NCBI GenBank assembly: GCA_011523785.1
Contig: WTFW01000163.1
Span: 4,835-68,834, forward strand
Direction: 5' to 3'
Length of the DNA stretch: 64,000 bases
From: Chloroflexota bacterium
GTDB lineage: Bacteria > Chloroflexota > UBA11872
The notes under the pieces were generated by a model. The model was not told the DNA's origin, searched no databases, and saw only the letters and a program-made list of their open reading frames with translations. Made by a program: the position numbers and the translations under genes. Position 1 is the first letter of the stretch. The number at the start of each line of letters is the position of its first letter. Positions 52,496 to 64,000 of the stretch are shown piece after piece.

Positions 52496-53404
52496 CTACC
52501 CATCACGCTCCGCCCGCGACCGCACCTCGACTTCCCCAATCGACACATACCCCGCATGTCCGCCATTTGCCAGCAACCGCAGCACCACGTAGCGCGTGAC
52601 CTCGGTCGGAAACTCAATCCGCACGCTCGGCGCGGCTTCCAGCTCCGCCTGCCGAATGAACTTCAGCCCGGACGGGTCCTCGCGCGGATCAACCTCGCGC
52701 GAAGTGAAGACCTGCACGCGCCGCGCATAACTGTCCGCCGGCTCGCTCGGGTGGTTCAGTACGTCAATTGTCGCGATCGGCGTGCGCAGGTTCATCTTCA
52801 AGACCACGTCCTGCGGGAATACGGCATTGGCCGAGCGCCAGGCCGGAAAGTCCGCTTCCACCAGACCATCCACCAGCGCCTCCGCACCGTGTCCCTCTTG
52901 CGCTCCGGCTGGCGAGTACGCTTGCCCTCCAACGGCTGAAGCTGAAACCAGTGCCCCGCGGCTGCGGTCCGCGCCGTCAAACAGCAGCCGCATCTTGACT
53001 GCCAGGTCGCCCCGCAGATCGCTGCCATTGGACACGATGAACAGCTGTACCGCCATCATCAACGACAGGCCCAGCACAATCCCCACCGGCAGCCAGTTCC
53101 AGGAAAACACGTTGCGTCGCAGCGCCGTACGGTCCAGCTCGACCCGCCGTTCCAGCTGCCCCTGGCAGACTTCGCACACGTATCCCCAGTCCGTGTCGTT
53201 CAGCGCCTCGTCGCAGAACAGCCGGGCGCAGTGGTCGCAGCGCTGCGTGGCCACCCGCGTCGGATAGACGGTGCAGCGGTACAGTGCCAGTTCGCGCGCG
53301 CTCTCGGCAAAGATGCGACGGCTGGGCGGACGTTTCGCCGGCTCGCCGACCCGCATTGCTGGACCCATCCGCCGCCGTTTCTCTGCGCGTGTCTCGGTGT
53401 CCAC
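52496..53404 (-). CDS. Hypothetical membrane protein: N-terminal Cys-rich zinc-ribbon-like region, one TM helix, and a C-terminal F5/8 type C (discoidin)-like domain.
   Basis: CTVYP...CDHCARLFCDE...YVCEVCQG, then TM WLPVGIVLGLSLMMAVQLFIV, and a discoidin-like ending RYVVLRLLANGGHAGYVSIGEVEVRS. Confidence 0.55.
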   Translation of the reverse strand: MDTETRAEKRRRMGPAMRVGEPAKRPPSRRIFAESARELALYRCTVYPTRVATQRCDHCARLFCDEALNDTDWGYVCEVCQGQLERRVELDRTALRRNVFSWNWLPVGIVLGLSLMMAVQLFIVSNGSDLRGDLAVKMRLLFDGADRSRGALVSASAVGGQAYSPAGAQEGHGAEALVDGLVEADFPAWRSANAVFPQDVVLKMNLRTPIATIDVLNHPSEPADSYARRVQVFTSREVDPREDPSGLKFIRQAELEAAPSVRIEFPTEVTRYVVLRLLANGGHAGYVSIGEVEVRSRAERDG

Positions 53405-53662: not shown

Positions 53663-54253
53663 ATGTTCAGGCGTAACAGCAACATCCTGCTCGAGATCGC
53701 CGAAACGGTGCTCCTGGCCGCCCTGATCTTCTTCGGCACCCGCCTGCTCGTGCAGAACTTCCTCGTCGAGGGCCCCAGCATGTCCCCCAACCTGGCCGAC
53801 TCCGAGTTCCTGCTCGTCAACAAACTCTCCTACCTCACCGAAGATCCGCAGCGCGGCGACGTTATCGTCTTCCGATCCCCTCGCAGTCCCGACGAGGATC
53901 TGGTCAAGCGCGTCATCGGACTACCAAACGACGAGGTCGAAATTCGCGCCGGACAGGTTCTCGTCAACGGCCACCTCATCGACGAGTCCAGCTACTTCAG
54001 CGGCCCGATCGGACGCGACACGCCCGCCAGGCGCGTGCCTGAAGATTCCTACTTCGTTATGGGCGACAACCGCCTGCAGAGCCGCGACTCCCGCGACATC
54101 GGCACGGTGCCTCGCGCCTCAATTGTCGGGCAGGTTTGGCTCGTGTACTGGCCGCCCGGCAAACTCGGATTCCTGCCTGAAGCCGCGCCGGCTTTGGTCC
54201 CAGTCCCCCAGCGCGCGCCCGACCTCCTGCCCGCCGGAAGCGCCGGCCGCTAG
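53663..54253 (+). CDS. lepB: Signal peptidase I.
   Basis: GPSMSP catalytic Ser box, KRVIGLPND general-base Lys box, GDNRLQSRDSR. Confidence 0.9.
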   Translation: MFRRNSNILLEIAETVLLAALIFFGTRLLVQNFLVEGPSMSPNLADSEFLLVNKLSYLTEDPQRGDVIVFRSPRSPDEDLVKRVIGLPNDEVEIRAGQVLVNGHLIDESSYFSGPIGRDTPARRVPEDSYFVMGDNRLQSRDSRDIGTVPRASIVGQVWLVYWPPGKLGFLPEAAPALVPVPQRAPDLLPAGSAGR

Positions 54254-59872: not shown

Positions 59873-60757
59873 CTACGCCTCAAGCCGTCCGTTGGCCCGC
59901 AGGGTCAACAGCGCCTCGACGGTGACGCTGCCGCGCCACTCCAGCTCACAAGCGCGGCTCAGCGGCTCCCATGAAATATTCCATCCGCCGTCCGGCTGCT
60001 GACCCGCCACGAGCAGGTCCAGATTCGCGGCGACGTCCTCAGGTCCAACGTGTTCTCGCAGCGGATGTTCGGGCGTGGGGGCCCAGTCAAGCGGTTTGAA
60101 GACATAGCCTTCCGCATTGACATCCGCAACCAGGTCGCTCGAGAGCAGCAGGCCGACCACGCGCGTCAGCTCCGCGTCCGCCCTGGCACGATCGGGGACG
60201 TTGTAGAGGAACTTGAGGACGACACCTGCGTCGTGAGGATCGGTGAGCTCCAGCTTGGCGATCTTGGACCAGCAGAACTTCGTGGCGACCTCCAGCCACT
60301 CGTGTCGAAAGCCGTTCTGGTGCAGCAGGCCGGCAATGGCGGCCGTCGGATTGACGGCTGCTGCGGGCGCGTCGCCGGTCTGCCACCAGGGCGCCCGCGG
60401 ATACTTCAGCGCGGAAGGCAAGAGCCACGGCACGCCGCCTTCCGCGGTCGTGATGGTCAGCAGGTAGTCACACGCATCCTTCACCATCTCGCCGTCGAAC
60501 CCAACCGTGCTGAGAAGCTCGAGCGCGTGCTGCACCGGCACGGGCTGACTATCGGGACAGCGAATGTCCGGTTCAAGGGCGTTGCCGAATCCACCATCGG
60601 CGTTCTGGTAGGGGCGCAGCGCGTCCACGACTGCAGCTGGCGAGCCGTCCTTGAAGTGAAACTCAAACAGCCGCCGCTCCAGCAGCCGGGCGTTCTTCCA
60701 AATGAAGTCTTCGGCGCGCTCCAGGATTGATCGACCCATCGGATCCTCCGAAGTCAC
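59873..60757 (-). CDS. Hypothetical protein with prenyltransferase/terpene-cyclase-like (alpha/alpha toroid) repeats.
   Basis: Two Q-x2-DGG(F/W) repeats (YQNADGGFG, GQQPDGGWN). Confidence 0.45.
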   Translation of the reverse strand: MTSEDPMGRSILERAEDFIWKNARLLERRLFEFHFKDGSPAAVVDALRPYQNADGGFGNALEPDIRCPDSQPVPVQHALELLSTVGFDGEMVKDACDYLLTITTAEGGVPWLLPSALKYPRAPWWQTGDAPAAAVNPTAAIAGLLHQNGFRHEWLEVATKFCWSKIAKLELTDPHDAGVVLKFLYNVPDRARADAELTRVVGLLLSSDLVADVNAEGYVFKPLDWAPTPEHPLREHVGPEDVAANLDLLVAGQQPDGGWNISWEPLSRACELEWRGSVTVEALLTLRANGRLEA

Positions 60758-61730: not shown

Positions 61731-62057
61731 TTCACTCCACCACGTCCAAGCTGCCGTTGCACTCTAGCGGCTCACGAATGCCCAATACCCTCGCGCCGGC
61801 TGCGCGGCAGCGCTTGGCCGCCAGCGATATGTGTACAGTGTGGGTCCGGACGTATGCGCCGTGCATCAACGGCAATTTCGAACGCCTAGTCTCAGGCCTT
61901 TGGTGCAGGCAGTCCTACCCCTTCTCCTGGCCCTTGAGCATGGCCTGCGCGGGCCCTCGCCCGCTCGCTCGGGCCGGTAGAACCGTCATCGTTCTCACAA
62001 CTCGCGATGCGGTCTTGCCGTCCGCCAGCCAAGTCTCACACTTCGAGGTCACGTCGG

Positions 62058-64000
62058 CTAGGGAGACTCGCAGGCGGGCAACCCAAGCTCGGCCAGGTCA
62101 TGCTCCGCCACGTCACTCAGGGGTGTGGGCACGCATCCCGTGAGCCCGGGGTTGCCCGCGAGGCGCAACTCTTTGAGATTGGCGAGCTGGCCCAATTCTG
62201 AAGGGATTGTGCCGCTGAGCTGGTTCGCGTCGAGCCACAGTTCAGCCAGCTTGGTGAGCCGGCCAAGCTCAGCCGGAATCGGACCTGACAGTTCGTTCCA
62301 CGACAAAGCCAGATACTCGAGGTTGGTGAGTTGGCCCAGTTCGGTAGGAATTCTGCCGCCAAGCGGGTTCACCATCAGTCGCAGCGTCCGCAGGCGGGAG
62401 AGCGAGCCTAGCTCCGGCGGAATCCCTCCGCTCAGCTGATTCCACGAGAGCAGCAGATACTCAAGGTTGGCGAGCTGGCCCAACTCGGGCGGGATTTCGC
62501 CGCTCAGCTGGTTCACCATTAGGCGCAGCCCTTCCAGATGGGTAAGCGAGCTCAGCTCCGGCGGAATCCCGCCGCTCAGCTCGTTCCATCCGAGACTCAG
62601 CCTGGTCAGCTTCGTCAGCGAGCCCAACTCCGGCGGAATCGCGCCGCTCAGCTGGTTATCGTCGAGATCCAGCCAAGTCAGGTTGACGAGTTGGCTCAGT
62701 TCAGGCGGAATCGCGCCGCTTAGCTGGTTGCCCGAAAGGTCCAGTGCAGGCAGGTTGAACAGCTGACCCAGAGCGGGCGGAATCGCGCCGCTCAACTGGT
62801 TGTTCTGAAGACTGAGAGATGTTAGGTCGGTGAGCTGGCCCAGGGTCTCGGGAATAGCGCCACTCAGCTGGTTGTGCATGAGGCTGAGCAACGTCAGGCC
62901 CGTGAGCGCGCCCAACTCCGGCGGAATCGTGCCGGTGAGCTGATTGTTCGAGAGGTCCAGCGAATGCAGGTTGACGAGTTGACCCAGCGTGGGCGGGATC
63001 GTGCTGGTCAACTGGTTGTTTCGAAGACCTAGCCGCGTCAGGCTGGTGAGTTGGCCAAGCTCCGAAGGAATGGCGCCGCTGAGTTCATTGTCGGAGAGGT
63101 TCAGCAACGTCAGGTTGGTCAGTTGGCCCAACTCGGGCGGGATCGCGCCCTGCAACTGGTTGCCCTGCAGCGAAACCGCTTCCAGGTTTGCGAGCCCTCC
63201 GATTTCCGGCGGGATCACGCCGCTGAGTTGGTTCTCCGCCATGTAGAGCGCTGTGAGCATGCTGAGTTGGCCGAGTTCCGCGGGCAGTTGGCCTCGCAGC
63301 CCGTGCCCGGCGAGTTCAAGGTGAATCACTCGCCCGCGGCGATCCACGATGACGCCGCTCCACTGATCGATTGGTAGGTCGCTCAGCCAGTTGCCGCTGT
63401 CGTTCCAGTTCGCGCCGTCCGTGGCGAGGTACAGGGCCACCAGCGCGGCCCGCTCGGCGGGGTCGGCGGCGCCGCAGTAGGGCAAACCGAGATCCCACAC
63501 GTCGGCGCCTGACACATATCGCAAGCGCTCTGGAATGCACCCGGTGAGACCATCGTTTGGCGTGAGGTGCAACGCCCGCAGGTTGTCGAGCCACGTCAGC
63601 TCTGCGGGAATCGGACCGCTGAACCGGTTCTTCTCGAGGTCCAGCGTCTCCAGGCTGGTCAGTTGCACGAGTTCCGCTGGTATCGGGCCCTCCAGGTGGT
63701 TCGCCCCGAGGTGCAACTCCGTCAGGTTGGTCAGCCGGCTCAGTTCCGTCGGGACCTGGCCGCTCAGCTGATTTCCCCGGAGATTCAATTCGGCGAGCCT
63801 GCTCAGTTCGCCCAGTTCCGCCGGGATCTCGCCGCTGAGGACATTCTCGGCCAGGTTCAACTCGGTGAGGTTCGCGAGCCGGCCCAGCGCCGCCGGGATC
63901 ACGCCGCTGAACGCGTTCTCGCGCAGGTTCAACACTCTGAGGCTGCCGAGCTCGCCCAGGTCCGGCGGCAATTCGCCGCTGAGGGCATTCCCGGACAGGT
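62058..64000 (-). CDS. Large plant-type (24-residue, LxxLxxLxLxxNxLSGxIPxxLGxL) leucine-rich-repeat protein with two LRRNT-capped repeat modules. N-terminus is beyond the window end.
   Basis: More than 20 consecutive 24-aa LRRs (for example LTNLTLLNLSDNELSGAIPSELGQ). Two module ends of the form N(D/P)GLTGC(I/V)P...LGLP(Y/A)C. An internal cap ERAALVALYLATDGANWNDSGNWLSDLPIDQWSGVIVD resembles the plant LRRNT_2 cap. Confidence 0.85.
   Translation of the reverse strand, partial: LSGNALSGELPPDLGELGSLRVLNLRENAFSGVIPAALGRLANLTELNLAENVLSGEIPAELGELSRLAELNLRGNQLSGQVPTELSRLTNLTELHLGANHLEGPIPAELVQLTSLETLDLEKNRFSGPIPAELTWLDNLRALHLTPNDGLTGCIPERLRYVSGADVWDLGLPYCGAADPAERAALVALYLATDGANWNDSGNWLSDLPIDQWSGVIVDRRGRVIHLELAGHGLRGQLPAELGQLSMLTALYMAENQLSGVIPPEIGGLANLEAVSLQGNQLQGAIPPELGQLTNLTLLNLSDNELSGAIPSELGQLTSLTRLGLRNNQLTSTIPPTLGQLVNLHSLDLSNNQLTGTIPPELGALTGLTLLSLMHNQLSGAIPETLGQLTDLTSLSLQNNQLSGAIPPALGQLFNLPALDLSGNQLSGAIPPELSQLVNLTWLDLDDNQLSGAIPPELGSLTKLTRLSLGWNELSGGIPPELSSLTHLEGLRLMVNQLSGEIPPELGQLANLEYLLLSWNQLSGGIPPELGSLSRLRTLRLMVNPLGGRIPTELGQLTNLEYLALSWNELSGPIPAELGRLTKLAELWLDANQLSGTIPSELGQLANLKELRLAGNPGLTGCVPTPLSDVAEHDLAELGLPACESP

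What the first reader, a model, noticed from the sequence alone, without database searches (positions are those of the whole stretch)
62058..64000. Large bacterial protein made of plant-type leucine-rich repeats in two LRRNT-capped modules
The reverse-strand ORF, which is truncated by the window end, encodes at least 22 consecutive 24-residue repeats of the plant-specific class (LxxLxxLxLxxNxLSGxIPxxLGxL). They are organised as two modules, each closed by N(D/P)GLTGC(I/V)P...LGLP(Y/A)C. The second module is preceded by a cap (ERAALVALYLATDGANWNDSGNWLSDLPIDQWSGVIVD) resembling the LRRNT_2 cap of plant receptor-like proteins. At the DNA level this yields degenerate ~72-bp periodicity, and several spurious plus-strand ORFs. 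Plant-type LRR ectodomains are uncommon in bacteria, and no kinase or effector domain is visible in the portion seen. Its neighbours are a PhyH-family dioxygenase and a terpene-cyclase-like repeat protein.
Basis: seen in the sequence. Interest (0 to 1): 0.55.

Follow-up and report, generated by a model that had tools for sequence, protein, structure and literature searches.

The report
Secreted multi-solenoid plant-type LRR protein
This is the C-terminal 646 residues of a roughly 1,730-residue secreted bacterial protein made only of plant-style leucine-rich repeats in capped blocks; it is a real gene, but one ordinary member of a very large bacterial family, here in a probably sponge-associated Chloroflexota genome.

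Summary
The minus-strand ORF 62058..>64000 is open to the window edge. It encodes 23 full and one partial 24-residue repeat with consensus LxxLxLxxNqLsGxIPpELgqLtn, the plant-specific LRR class. The repeats form two blocks, each closed by a two-cysteine C-cap, with a cysteine-free LRRNT-like N-cap between them.

The claim that such proteins are uncommon in bacteria does not hold. The 108-residue cap junction alone matches 19,052 protein clusters, and most top homologues share the same cap/closer architecture.

A related contig (L097, 92% nt identity over 1,185 bp) supplies the missing 5' end. It shows a signal-peptide-like N-terminus and a further capped LRR block, with no kinase, effector or other domain. 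The four cysteines of this composite protein all lie in the two C-caps.

The gene sits in a ~6-kb lineage-specific segment between two conserved PhyH-family genes. Its codon composition is native, and dN/dS is about 0.27.

Best reading: an exported multi-solenoid binding protein of the "eukaryotic-like protein" kind known from sponge symbionts. The ligand is unknown. It is a new member of a known kind, of low to moderate interest.

The parts
62058..64000 (-). 3' part (646 codons plus stop) of the LRR gene; the 5' end lies beyond the window
   Evidence: Open frame to the window edge; Pfam LRR families; 92% nt identity to L097 4284-5468
63582..63998 (-). Last repeats of the middle LRR block (residues 1-139): one partial and five full 24-residue plant-type LRRs
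   Evidence: Register and sequences. In L097 this block starts with its own N-cap about 270 residues upstream.
63474..63581 (-). C-cap of the middle block (residues 140-175): LRALHLTPNDGLTGCIPERLRYVSGADVWDLGLPYC, with a Cys pair at residues 154 and 175
   Evidence: G-C-x-P and the second Cys are invariant in 43 aligned junctions. These are two of only four Cys in the composite protein (L097 N-terminal part joined to the window part).
63330..63473 (-). Short linker and cysteine-free LRRNT-like N-cap of the last block (residues 176-223): GAADPAERAALVALYLATDGANWNDSGNWLSDLPIDQWSGVIVDRRGR
   Evidence: Aligns with plant cap regions. Three Trp, G16 and G36 are invariant in 36 bacterial caps. hhalign against plant caps is in register, P=5.9e-4. 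The junction model has pLDDT 95.1, with a helix at model residues 63-75, i.e. window residues 180-192. There is no Pfam LRRNT_2 hit.
62178..63329 (-). Last LRR block (residues 224-607): 16 consecutive 24-residue plant-type LRRs
   Evidence: The single-sequence AF2 model is a solenoid (pLDDT 81.9, pTM 0.80). All top 50 Foldseek PDB hits are plant LRR receptor ectodomains. TRF periods 72/144/216.
62061..62177 (-). Closing repeat and C-cap of the last block (residues 608-646): LKELRLAGNPGLTGCVPTPLSDVAEHDLAELGLPACESP, followed by the stop codon at 62058-62060
   Evidence: Cys pair at residues 622 and 643
61801..62057 (.). Lineage-specific 3' flank of the LRR gene. Homology with all related Chloroflexota loci starts only at about 61770-61800.
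   Evidence: blastn end points; three-way junction alignment A4; no terminator-like, promoter-like or inverted-repeat feature found

Best explanation
The ORF is the C-terminal third of an exported protein of about 1,730 residues. The protein consists of an N-terminal signal peptide followed by three LRR solenoids built from about 60 plant-class 24-residue repeats.

Each solenoid begins with a cysteine-free LRRNT-like cap: a helix, then the W..NW...WxGV motif. The last two solenoids end in a C-cap that carries the protein's only four cysteines, which probably form two disulfides.

The protein has no catalytic or signalling domain. It most likely acts outside the cytoplasm as a multivalent binding protein, using the variable concave faces of the solenoids. 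It is an accessory gene of a Chloroflexota lineage whose closest relatives are, by their isolate names, metagenome bins from marine sponges. That places it among the LRR-type 'eukaryotic-like proteins' thought to mediate contact with host cells or host matrix.

Shown: the repeat class, the caps, the module architecture, the family size, the accessory location and purifying selection.
Shown only in a related contig: the signal peptide and the first block.
Inferred: export, the disulfides, the sponge habitat and the binding role.
Unknown: the ligand.
For: Repeat class and fold.

Caps and junction. Seventy distinct closer-linker-cap junctions occur in the top 120 homologues. Residues G36, C37, P39, C58, W81, W87, W96 and G98 are invariant. 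The junction model has pLDDT 95.1 and superposes on plant SERK1, BAK1 and FLS2 N-termini over about 124 columns at rmsd 1.7-2.6 Å.

Missing 5' part. L097 overlaps window 64000-62819 at 92% nt identity. Upstream, bridged over four one-base frameshifts, it reads MVRRPKVWLASLSIAVLLLLRVGAQD, then a cap, then LRRs. 1,085 residues precede the window, and only LRR Pfam families hit them.

Export. Cysteines occur only at the four cap positions. By a crude heuristic, 71 of the 120 top homologues have an N-terminal hydrophobic segment. A signal peptidase I-like ORF, identified by eye, lies at 53663-54253.

Binding surface. Concave positions 3, 5, 7 and 8 are the most variable (2.9-3.3 bits), while scaffold positions are nearly invariant.

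Constraint. dN/dS is about 0.27 against the L097 orthologue.

Lineage. The flanking genes are 83-94% identical to Chloroflexota bins named RHO, COS and SB. LRR proteins are reported as enriched eukaryote-like repeat proteins of sponge symbionts, and among sponge Chloroflexi in the SAR202 and Caldilineae genomes studied (PMC8163846; PMC6306507).
Against: The N-terminus was not seen in this genome. It comes from a 2x-coverage contig of a related organism and needed four hand-made frameshift corrections.

No signal-peptide predictor was available. The N-terminal segment could be a membrane anchor instead.

The disulfides are inferred from conservation only, because model coordinates could not be read.

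The sponge origin rests on the isolate names of relatives, not on metadata for this window.

The family also occurs in free-living bacteria such as Desulfonema ishimotonii and in assorted metagenome contigs whose habitats were not checked. Host interaction is therefore not implied by the fold.

No experiment has assigned a function to any member of this bacterial family that I could find.
Confidence: 0.62

Rival explanations
1. It is an injected host-targeting effector of the Xanthomonas XopL/XopAE/XopAC kind, in which a plant-type LRR domain targets a catalytic domain to host proteins inside the host cell.
For: NCBIfam's best matches are XopAE (238 bits), XopAC (191 bits) and XopL (108 bits). 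These use similar LRRs.
Against: All scores are far below the curated cut-offs of 600, 450 and 500, and they come from the repeats alone. No E3-ligase, Fic or other domain occurs in the window part or in the reconstructed upstream 1,085 residues. The N-terminus looks like a Sec signal peptide. Conserved cysteine pairs suggest an oxidising extracytoplasmic site. Few sponge-symbiont lineages encode the injection systems (PMC8163846).
Confidence: 0.05
2. It is a recent horizontal acquisition of a plant receptor ectodomain gene.
For: The best solved-structure matches are all plant receptor kinases. Plant LRR receptor kinases appear among the database hits at 560-590 bits. Transfer of plant-specific LRRs between plants and bacteria has been proposed (Miyashita et al. 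2013, seen only as a reference).
Against: Bacterial homologues score far higher (938 bits for the best bacterial hit against 589 for the best plant hit) and share the bacterial cap and closer. The cap lacks the plant cysteine pair. GC3 and codon use match the neighbours. There is no kinase or transmembrane segment after the LRRs. The junction type occurs in more than 19,000 clusters.
Confidence: 0.03
3. It is a membrane-anchored sensor or co-receptor. The N-terminal hydrophobic segment is an uncleaved anchor, and ligand binding by the solenoids is relayed to a separate signalling partner.
For: The N-terminal segment could serve as an anchor as well as a signal peptide. Plant proteins with this fold are receptors.
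Against: The reconstructed protein has no cytoplasmic domain: only 6 residues precede the hydrophobic segment. No signalling gene is conserved next to it. The gene lies alone in a ~6-kb insert.
Confidence: 0.15
4. It binds non-host targets (other microbes, phage, or polymers in dissolved organic matter) and has nothing to do with a host.
For: The family occurs in free-living bacteria and in many metagenome contigs whose habitats were not checked. Relatives fuse LRR blocks to peptidase, fn3, beta-propeller-like or helicase domains.
Against: Nothing here speaks directly against it. The published enrichment of LRR proteins in sponge-associated over seawater genomes (PMC8163846) favours a host-related role on average.
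Confidence: 0.15

Closest known systems
Bacterial multi-module plant-type LRR proteins (unnamed 'leucine-rich repeat domain-containing proteins', e.g. P0001, P0006, P0010, P0079 from Chloroflexota and other metagenome bins)
   Same: Identical building plan: a DRxALVALYNATxGxNW...NWLSDxPLxxWxGV cap, then 24-residue LRRs, then an NxLTGC(I/V)P...LGLPxC closer, repeated 2-5 times or more, after an N-terminal hydrophobic segment.
   Different: Identity is only 35-57%. Many carry extra fn3-like or other domains at the N-terminus, which the reconstructed protein lacks. The first block of the L097 orthologue has no cysteine closer.
Plant LRR receptor-kinase ectodomains (GSO1 6s6q, PEPR1 5gr8, FLS2 4mn8, ERL1/2, BRI1) and SERK/BAK1 co-receptors
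   Same: Repeat class, length and fold. The N-cap has the same register and superposes. The C-cap has two cysteines, like the plant LRRCT (the plant feature is from my own knowledge).
   Different: There is no transmembrane helix or kinase after the repeats. The N-cap lacks the CxWxGVxC cysteine pair and does not hit Pfam LRRNT_2. Several solenoids are strung together in one chain.
Arabidopsis TMK1/TMK3 ectodomain ('LRR protein with two solenoids', 4hq1, 7brc)
   Same: A plant-type LRR protein with more than one solenoid in a single chain. It is the top Foldseek hit of the junction model (E=2.1e-8).
   Different: The superposition is poor (rmsd 12.7 Å, TM 0.56). The junction here is a C-cap directly followed by an N-cap.
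Xanthomonas type III effectors XopL, XopAE and XopAC
   Same: Bacterial proteins with plant-like LRRs. They are the best NCBIfam matches.
   Different: All scores are below the family cut-offs. There is no XL-box or Fic domain. The N-terminus looks like a Sec signal rather than a type III signal.
LRR-class eukaryotic-like proteins (ELPs/ELRs) of sponge symbionts
   Same: An LRR Pfam-domain protein in a Chloroflexota lineage related to sponge metagenome bins. This is a category reported as enriched in sponge symbionts and present in SAR202 and Caldilineae genomes.
   Different: That category is defined only by Pfam hits and habitat, and no LRR member has a demonstrated function. The sponge origin of this window is inferred.

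Membership tests
Plant-specific (PS) LRR class (Kobe/Kajava/Matsushima classification) | Repeat length of 23-25 residues | tested here: met
   18 of 19 spacings are exactly 24 residues. In the composite protein (L097 N-terminal part joined to the window part), 59 regex-matched repeats are spaced by 24 except at two islands and two junctions.
Plant-specific (PS) LRR class (Kobe/Kajava/Matsushima classification) | Consensus LxxLxLxxNxL(t/s)GxIPxxLGxLxx | tested here: met
   The consensus of 23 repeats is LxxLxLxxNqLsGxIPpELgqLtn. The definition is in PMC2946307.
Plant-specific (PS) LRR class (Kobe/Kajava/Matsushima classification) | Occurrence in extracellular plant proteins (original 1990s definition, quoted in PMC2244805) | tested here: not met
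   The host is a Chloroflexota bacterium. This criterion is already outdated: the title of Miyashita et al. 2013 reports PS-LRRs in bacteria.
Pfam LRRNT_2 (PF08263) N-terminal cap | Score above the Pfam gathering threshold | tested here: not met
   No LRRNT_2 hit at E<=10 for the cap alone or with its flanks. The only hit is sub-threshold LRR_10 at 13.7-16.1 bits, against a cut-off of 30. The same holds for caps of homologues.
Pfam LRRNT_2 (PF08263) N-terminal cap | Conserved cysteine pair CxWxGVxC | tested here: not met
   The window has DQWSGVIV. Among the 120 homologues of the first search, only 8 show CxWxGVxC, including the five plant receptor kinases.
Pfam LRRNT_2 (PF08263) N-terminal cap | Same position and fold: a helix followed by a strand that leads into the first LRR | tested here: met
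   Sequence alignments to GSO1, PGIP, TDR and TMK3 caps. hhalign is in register, P=5.9e-4, probability 29%. The model has pLDDT 95 with a helix at model residues 63-75. Foldseek alignments of about 124 columns to SERK1, BAK1 and FLS2 give rmsd 1.7-2.6 Å; the aligned ranges were not shown.
Xanthomonas XopL / XopAE / XopAC effector families (NCBIfam) | Score above the curated NCBIfam cut-off | tested here: not met
   Scores against cut-offs are 107.7 vs 500, 238.3 vs 600 and 190.9 vs 450.
Xanthomonas XopL / XopAE / XopAC effector families (NCBIfam) | Catalytic or effector domain next to the LRRs | tested here: not met
   Only LRR families hit the window part and the upstream 1,085 residues.
Internalins (NCBIfam internalin_A, internalin_K) | Score above the curated cut-off; 22-residue repeats with an inter-repeat Ig-like region | tested here: not met
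   Scores are 140 vs 1600 and 37 vs 1100. The repeat length is 24.
Plant LRR receptor-like kinases | Transmembrane helix and kinase domain C-terminal to the LRRs | tested here: not met
   The stop codon comes three residues after the C-cap. There is no kinase Pfam hit.
Sponge-symbiont eukaryotic-like (LRR) proteins | LRR Pfam domains in a bacterial protein | tested here: met
Sponge-symbiont eukaryotic-like (LRR) proteins | Encoded by a sponge-associated symbiont | tested here: inconclusive
   The flanking genes are 83-94% identical to Chloroflexota bins whose isolate names (RHO1, RHO3, COS2) seem to match the sponge species of PMC8163846. More distant relatives of the PhyH gene are in Poribacteria and Latescibacterota bins. 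No metadata exist for the window itself.
Sponge-symbiont eukaryotic-like (LRR) proteins | Role in host interaction, such as evasion of phagocytosis | not testable with these tools
   Shown experimentally only for ankyrin-repeat proteins, according to PMC6306507 and PMC8163846.

The most novel reading that the evidence does not exclude
The cysteine-free N-cap, the two-cysteine C-cap and their direct C-cap-to-N-cap joint may define an uncurated bacterial domain pair, found in more than 19,000 protein clusters. Such a joint could lock successive LRR solenoids into a fixed geometry, giving rigid multivalent 'rods'. Caps that combine the bacterial ALYNxTxGxNW motif with the plant CxWxGVxC pair (P0066, P0195, P0228, P0237) might then be evolutionary intermediates. 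In that case the plant receptor ectodomain and this bacterial family would share a direct ancestry whose direction (bacteria to streptophytes, or the reverse) could be resolved. In this lineage the protein would bind sponge-derived ligands.
Probability: 0.12. Interest if true: 0.55.

Novelty: new member of a known kind. Interest (0 to 1): 0.22.

Why it matters
For this window it matters little. The gene can be annotated with confidence as a secreted, multi-solenoid, plant-class LRR protein. It is an accessory gene of a probably sponge-associated Chloroflexota lineage, and it is not a rarity or a plant transfer.

The Pfam copy used here does not capture that module above threshold. The family is therefore a reasonable target for domain curation. 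It could also inform the open question of how plant and bacterial plant-type LRRs are related, and experiments on what LRR 'eukaryotic-like proteins' of sponge symbionts actually bind.

Tried and rejected
- Exact search for the last 140 bases of the window found nothing in genome contigs or metagenome contigs.
- Exact look-up of the PhyH neighbour found nothing on record, so the source genome is not in the collections.
- The search for related loci with the LRR protein in metagenome contigs gave only 33-52% relatives and no orthologue.
- The related loci found through PhyH do not carry the LRR gene next to it, so they could not supply the N-terminus.
- The listing of cluster members returned no names.
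- A word-index search with the single 108-residue junction returned nothing. The same search with alignment A1 did find the orthologue fragment P0357.
- PF26769, frequent in the precomputed domain lists, turned out to be a faint HAMP_PhoQ hit and is irrelevant.
- Pfam LRR_10 was considered as the cap family but stays below threshold on all seven caps tested.
- The single-sequence AF2 model of the last block gave low confidence for both caps. It was replaced by the alignment-based junction model.
- Promoter, terminator and inverted-repeat scans of the 3' flank were empty.
- No tRNA or other RNA gene lies near the gene.
- No target-site duplication was visible at the insert borders.
- A functional link with the PhyH gene and the neighbour at 59873-60757 was rejected because synteny breaks between them and the LRR gene.
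Full report

Translating the minus strand from 63998 to 62058 gives 646 sense codons and then a stop. The frame is open to the window edge and starts in mid-repeat, so the gene is cut by the window. The TTG start that the ORF listing gives at 63971 is the Leu of a GxLP repeat position.

An LxxLxLxxNxL pattern occurs 20 times, and 18 of 19 spacings are exactly 24 residues. In register there are 23 full repeats and one partial repeat. Their consensus is LxxLxLxxNqLsGxIPpELgqLtn. This equals the published consensus of the plant-specific LRR class, LxxLxLxxNxL(t/s)GxIPxxLGxLxx with a length of 23-25 (PMC2946307).

Pfam LRR_1, LRR_8, LRR_4 and LRR_14 hit at E=1e-47 to 1e-73. Tandem Repeats Finder sees degenerate periods of 72, 144 and 216 bp. 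Repeats are on average 60% identical at the DNA level, with a maximum of 76%. They are therefore old and diverged, not an assembly artefact.

The short overlapping ORFs exist.

The PhyH neighbour is confirmed. The 'terpene-cyclase-like' label of 59873-60757 has no support from Pfam or from PDB sequences.

**2. What the repeats and caps are**

By sequence, the best solved structures are plant LRR receptor-kinase ectodomains: GSO1 at 5.9e-178, PEPR1, FLS2, BRL2 and MIK2.

A single-sequence AlphaFold model of the last block is a solenoid (pLDDT 81.9, pTM 0.80). Its top 50 Foldseek PDB matches are all plant receptor ectodomains, with TM up to 0.81.

The cap aligns in register with the N-terminal cap regions of GSO1, PGIP, TDR, TMK3 and HPCA1. 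However, it has DQWSGVIV where plants have CxWxGVxC. It gives no Pfam LRRNT_2 hit even at E<=10, only a sub-threshold LRR_10 hit.

A profile of 36 bacterial caps against five plant caps aligns over the full length in the expected register. The signal is weak: P=5.9e-4, probability 29%.

I then modelled the closer-linker-cap junction with an alignment of 43 homologous junctions. This gave pLDDT 95.1 and pTM 0.76, with a helix over ERAALVALYLATD followed by strands leading into the first repeat. Foldseek aligns about 124 columns of this model to SERK1, BAK1 and FLS2 at rmsd 1.7-2.6 Å. The aligned ranges were not shown; 124 is the number of residues from the cap start to the end of the model. The top hit is the two-solenoid plant protein TMK1, but with a poor superposition.

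So the cap works like a plant LRRNT but fails the membership tests for Pfam LRRNT_2.

**3. How common is it?**

The best is only 46% identical. The few that carry names are Chloroflexi bins, Desulfonema ishimotonii and plant receptor kinases, and the plants score well below the best bacterial proteins.

Among the top 120:
- 101 carry the cysteine-free cap motif;
- 84 carry a GC(I/V)P closer;
- 79 carry both;
- 71 have an N-terminal hydrophobic segment, by a crude heuristic;
- only 8 have the plant cysteine pair.

Seventy distinct closer-linker-cap junctions occur in these proteins. G-C-x-P, the second Cys and the three Trp of the cap are invariant among them.

An exhaustive HMMER search with the 108-residue junction alone found 19,052 cluster representatives at E<=1e-3, 7,477 at E<=1e-10 and 1,227 at E<=1e-30. 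One protein had up to 31 matched stretches. Part of the weak tail will be due to the flanking LRR residues in the query.

That plant-specific LRRs occur in bacteria is also in the literature (Miyashita et al. 2013), which I saw only as a reference.

**4. The missing N-terminus**

The source genome is not in the searchable collections, and metagenome contigs held no orthologue.

A profile search with the junction alignment found P0357, a 250-residue fragment 94% identical to the window junction. It lies on a 5,468-bp ENA contig assembled at 2x coverage, held here as L097.

Window 64000-62819 aligns to L097 4284-5468 at 92% nucleotide identity. L097 therefore carries 4,283 bp of the region beyond the window, from a closely related organism.

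Joining five reading-frame segments across four one-base frameshifts gives a continuous LRR protein. The segments abut at 2388|2388, 3239|3241, 3525|3527 and 4474|4476, as expected for indel errors at 2x coverage. In order, the protein contains:
- MVRRPKVWLASLSIAVLLLLRVGAQD: a basic N-region, a hydrophobic core and a small-residue site, which is signal-peptide-like;
- a cap (ADREVLVALYTAANGPGWYDSTNWLSDRPVGEWHGV);
- a block with 27 regex-matched repeats and two 21-residue islands, without a cysteine closer;
- a Pro/Ala-rich linker;
- a second cap;
- the block whose end is visible in the window.

1,085 residues precede the window's first residue. The 291-residue overlap is 93.1% identical. Only LRR families hit the upstream part.

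The composite protein (L097 N-terminal part joined to the window part) is about 1,731 residues long. It has 59 regex-matched repeats (27 + 16 + 16), three caps and two closers. Its only four cysteines are the two pairs in the closers. That pattern points to two structural disulfides and hence to an extracytoplasmic location.

These points are inferred for the window genome by orthology. They depend on my frameshift corrections.

**5. Genomic setting and evolution**

The genes downstream of the LRR gene run in this order: PhyH, the unassigned 294-residue protein, a xylose-isomerase-like TIM-barrel protein, DJ-1/PfpI, a periplasmic binding protein and an aminotransferase. They are 80-97% identical to those of Chloroflexota bins L001-L017, and the order is kept apart from the 294-residue gene, which several relatives lack. 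One of these bins is labelled Dehalococcoidia.

Nucleotide homology to every relative stops at window 61770-61800, which is 40-70 bp upstream of the PhyH start. None of the relatives has the LRR gene there.

The first 505 bp of L097 are a PhyH-like paralogue. In L008 this paralogue lies directly next to PhyH. A three-way alignment shows that about 60 bp of L008 are replaced by about 6.0 kb in the window lineage. The only gene recognised in this segment is the LRR gene. No transposase, tRNA, inverted repeat or target duplication was seen.

Other relatives carry different cargo between the two PhyH-family genes. Other LRR genes sit at other places in L007, L008 and L016. Two homologue loci are flanked by transposases.

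GC3 is 0.80, against 0.77-0.89 for the neighbours, and codon choice is native. dN/dS against the L097 orthologue is about 0.27, with dS 0.14.

The gene is thus an accessory gene that is resident and under constraint. It is not a recent import from a differently composed donor.

**6. What it most likely does**

The protein has no catalytic or signalling domain. It has a signal-peptide-like N-terminus and cysteines only in the caps.

Its variability is concentrated at repeat positions 3, 5, 7 and 8, which form the exposed face of the beta-sheet. These positions carry 2.9-3.3 bits of entropy, while scaffold positions are nearly invariant.

The most likely mechanism is an exported protein, either surface-retained or released, that binds ligands on the concave faces of three solenoids.

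The lineage's nearest relatives have isolate names (RHO1, RHO3, COS2) that seem to match the sponge species of Robbins et al. 2021. More distant relatives of the PhyH gene are in Poribacteria and Latescibacterota bins. LRR proteins are reported as enriched 'eukaryote-like repeat' proteins in sponge symbionts, and among sponge Chloroflexi in the SAR202 and Caldilineae genomes studied.

I therefore rate a role in contact with host cells or host matrix as the best guess. It is not demonstrated for any LRR member, and the family is also found outside sponges.

**7. Rivals**

- An injected XopL/XopAE/XopAC-like effector. The NCBIfam scores are far below the cut-offs and there is no effector domain.
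- A recent plant-to-bacterium transfer. It conflicts with the composition, the cap type and the much closer bacterial relatives.
- An anchored sensor. This cannot be excluded, but the protein has no cytoplasmic part.
- A non-host binding role. This remains open.

**8. Verdict**

The protein is a new member of a known and very large kind. Nothing about it is surprising beyond the fact that the standard cap/closer module of this family has no above-threshold Pfam model in the copy used. Interest: 0.22.

Noticed in passing
window 61770-61800 and L097 about 505; L008 9879-9947: The space between two conserved PhyH-family genes is a variable slot. It is about 60 bp in L008 and about 6 kb with the LRR gene in the window lineage. 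L002, L003, L004 and L006 carry other genes upstream of PhyH there (by eye, sulfatase-like and oxidoreductase-like).
   Followed up: partly
window 59873-60757 (-): This 294-residue protein is conserved next to PhyH in L001-L006 and L020 (78-92% identity). It is absent between PhyH and the TIM-barrel gene in several other relatives (e.g. L007-L009, L011-L017). It has no Pfam hit at E<=10 and no PDB sequence hit; only short DGG(F/W) motifs recall prenyltransferase or terpene-cyclase repeats.
   Followed up: partly
L008 16344-18521 (-); L016 3-3638 (-); L007 3-6515 (-): Related Chloroflexota carry other plant-type LRR proteins with a different, cysteine-bearing cap (…DCxxLIxLxxxL…NW…WxG[VI]). In L008 the LRR part is fused to a region that by eye looks like a TolB-type beta-propeller. 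In L016 it is fused to long arrays of ~100-residue repeats; L007 carries a comparably long (>2,100-residue) ORF whose sequence was not inspected.
   Followed up: no
L097 about 2430-2492 and about 2853-2915 (orthologue residues ~467-487 and ~608-628): Two 21-residue insertions ('islands') interrupt the first LRR block at the same repeat position. They may be real loops or artefacts of the 2x-coverage assembly.
   Followed up: no
P0066, P0195, P0228, P0237 (homologues): These caps combine the bacterial ALYNxTDGxNW motif with the plant-type CxWxG(V/I)xC cysteine pair. They are possible intermediates between bacterial and plant caps. Their source organisms are unknown.
   Followed up: no
P0036, P0097, P0120: In these homologues the plant-type LRR blocks are fused to DEAD/ResIII helicase domains (precomputed PF00270, PF00271, PF04851). 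That implies cytoplasmic members of the family.
   Followed up: no
L080 412-1508 and 9990-11125; L081 13582-14463: The closest full-length homologues (P0001, P0006) are flanked by transposase genes (DDE_3, rve, DDE_Tnp_1). This suggests the family moves with mobile elements in some genomes.
   Followed up: no
window 52496-53404 (-): This conserved 302-residue protein has, by eye, an N-terminal Cys-rich segment and a transmembrane stretch. It also has a weak, sub-threshold F5/8 type C (discoidin) hit (21.7 bits against a cut-off of 28.2). It could be another surface-binding protein.
   Followed up: no
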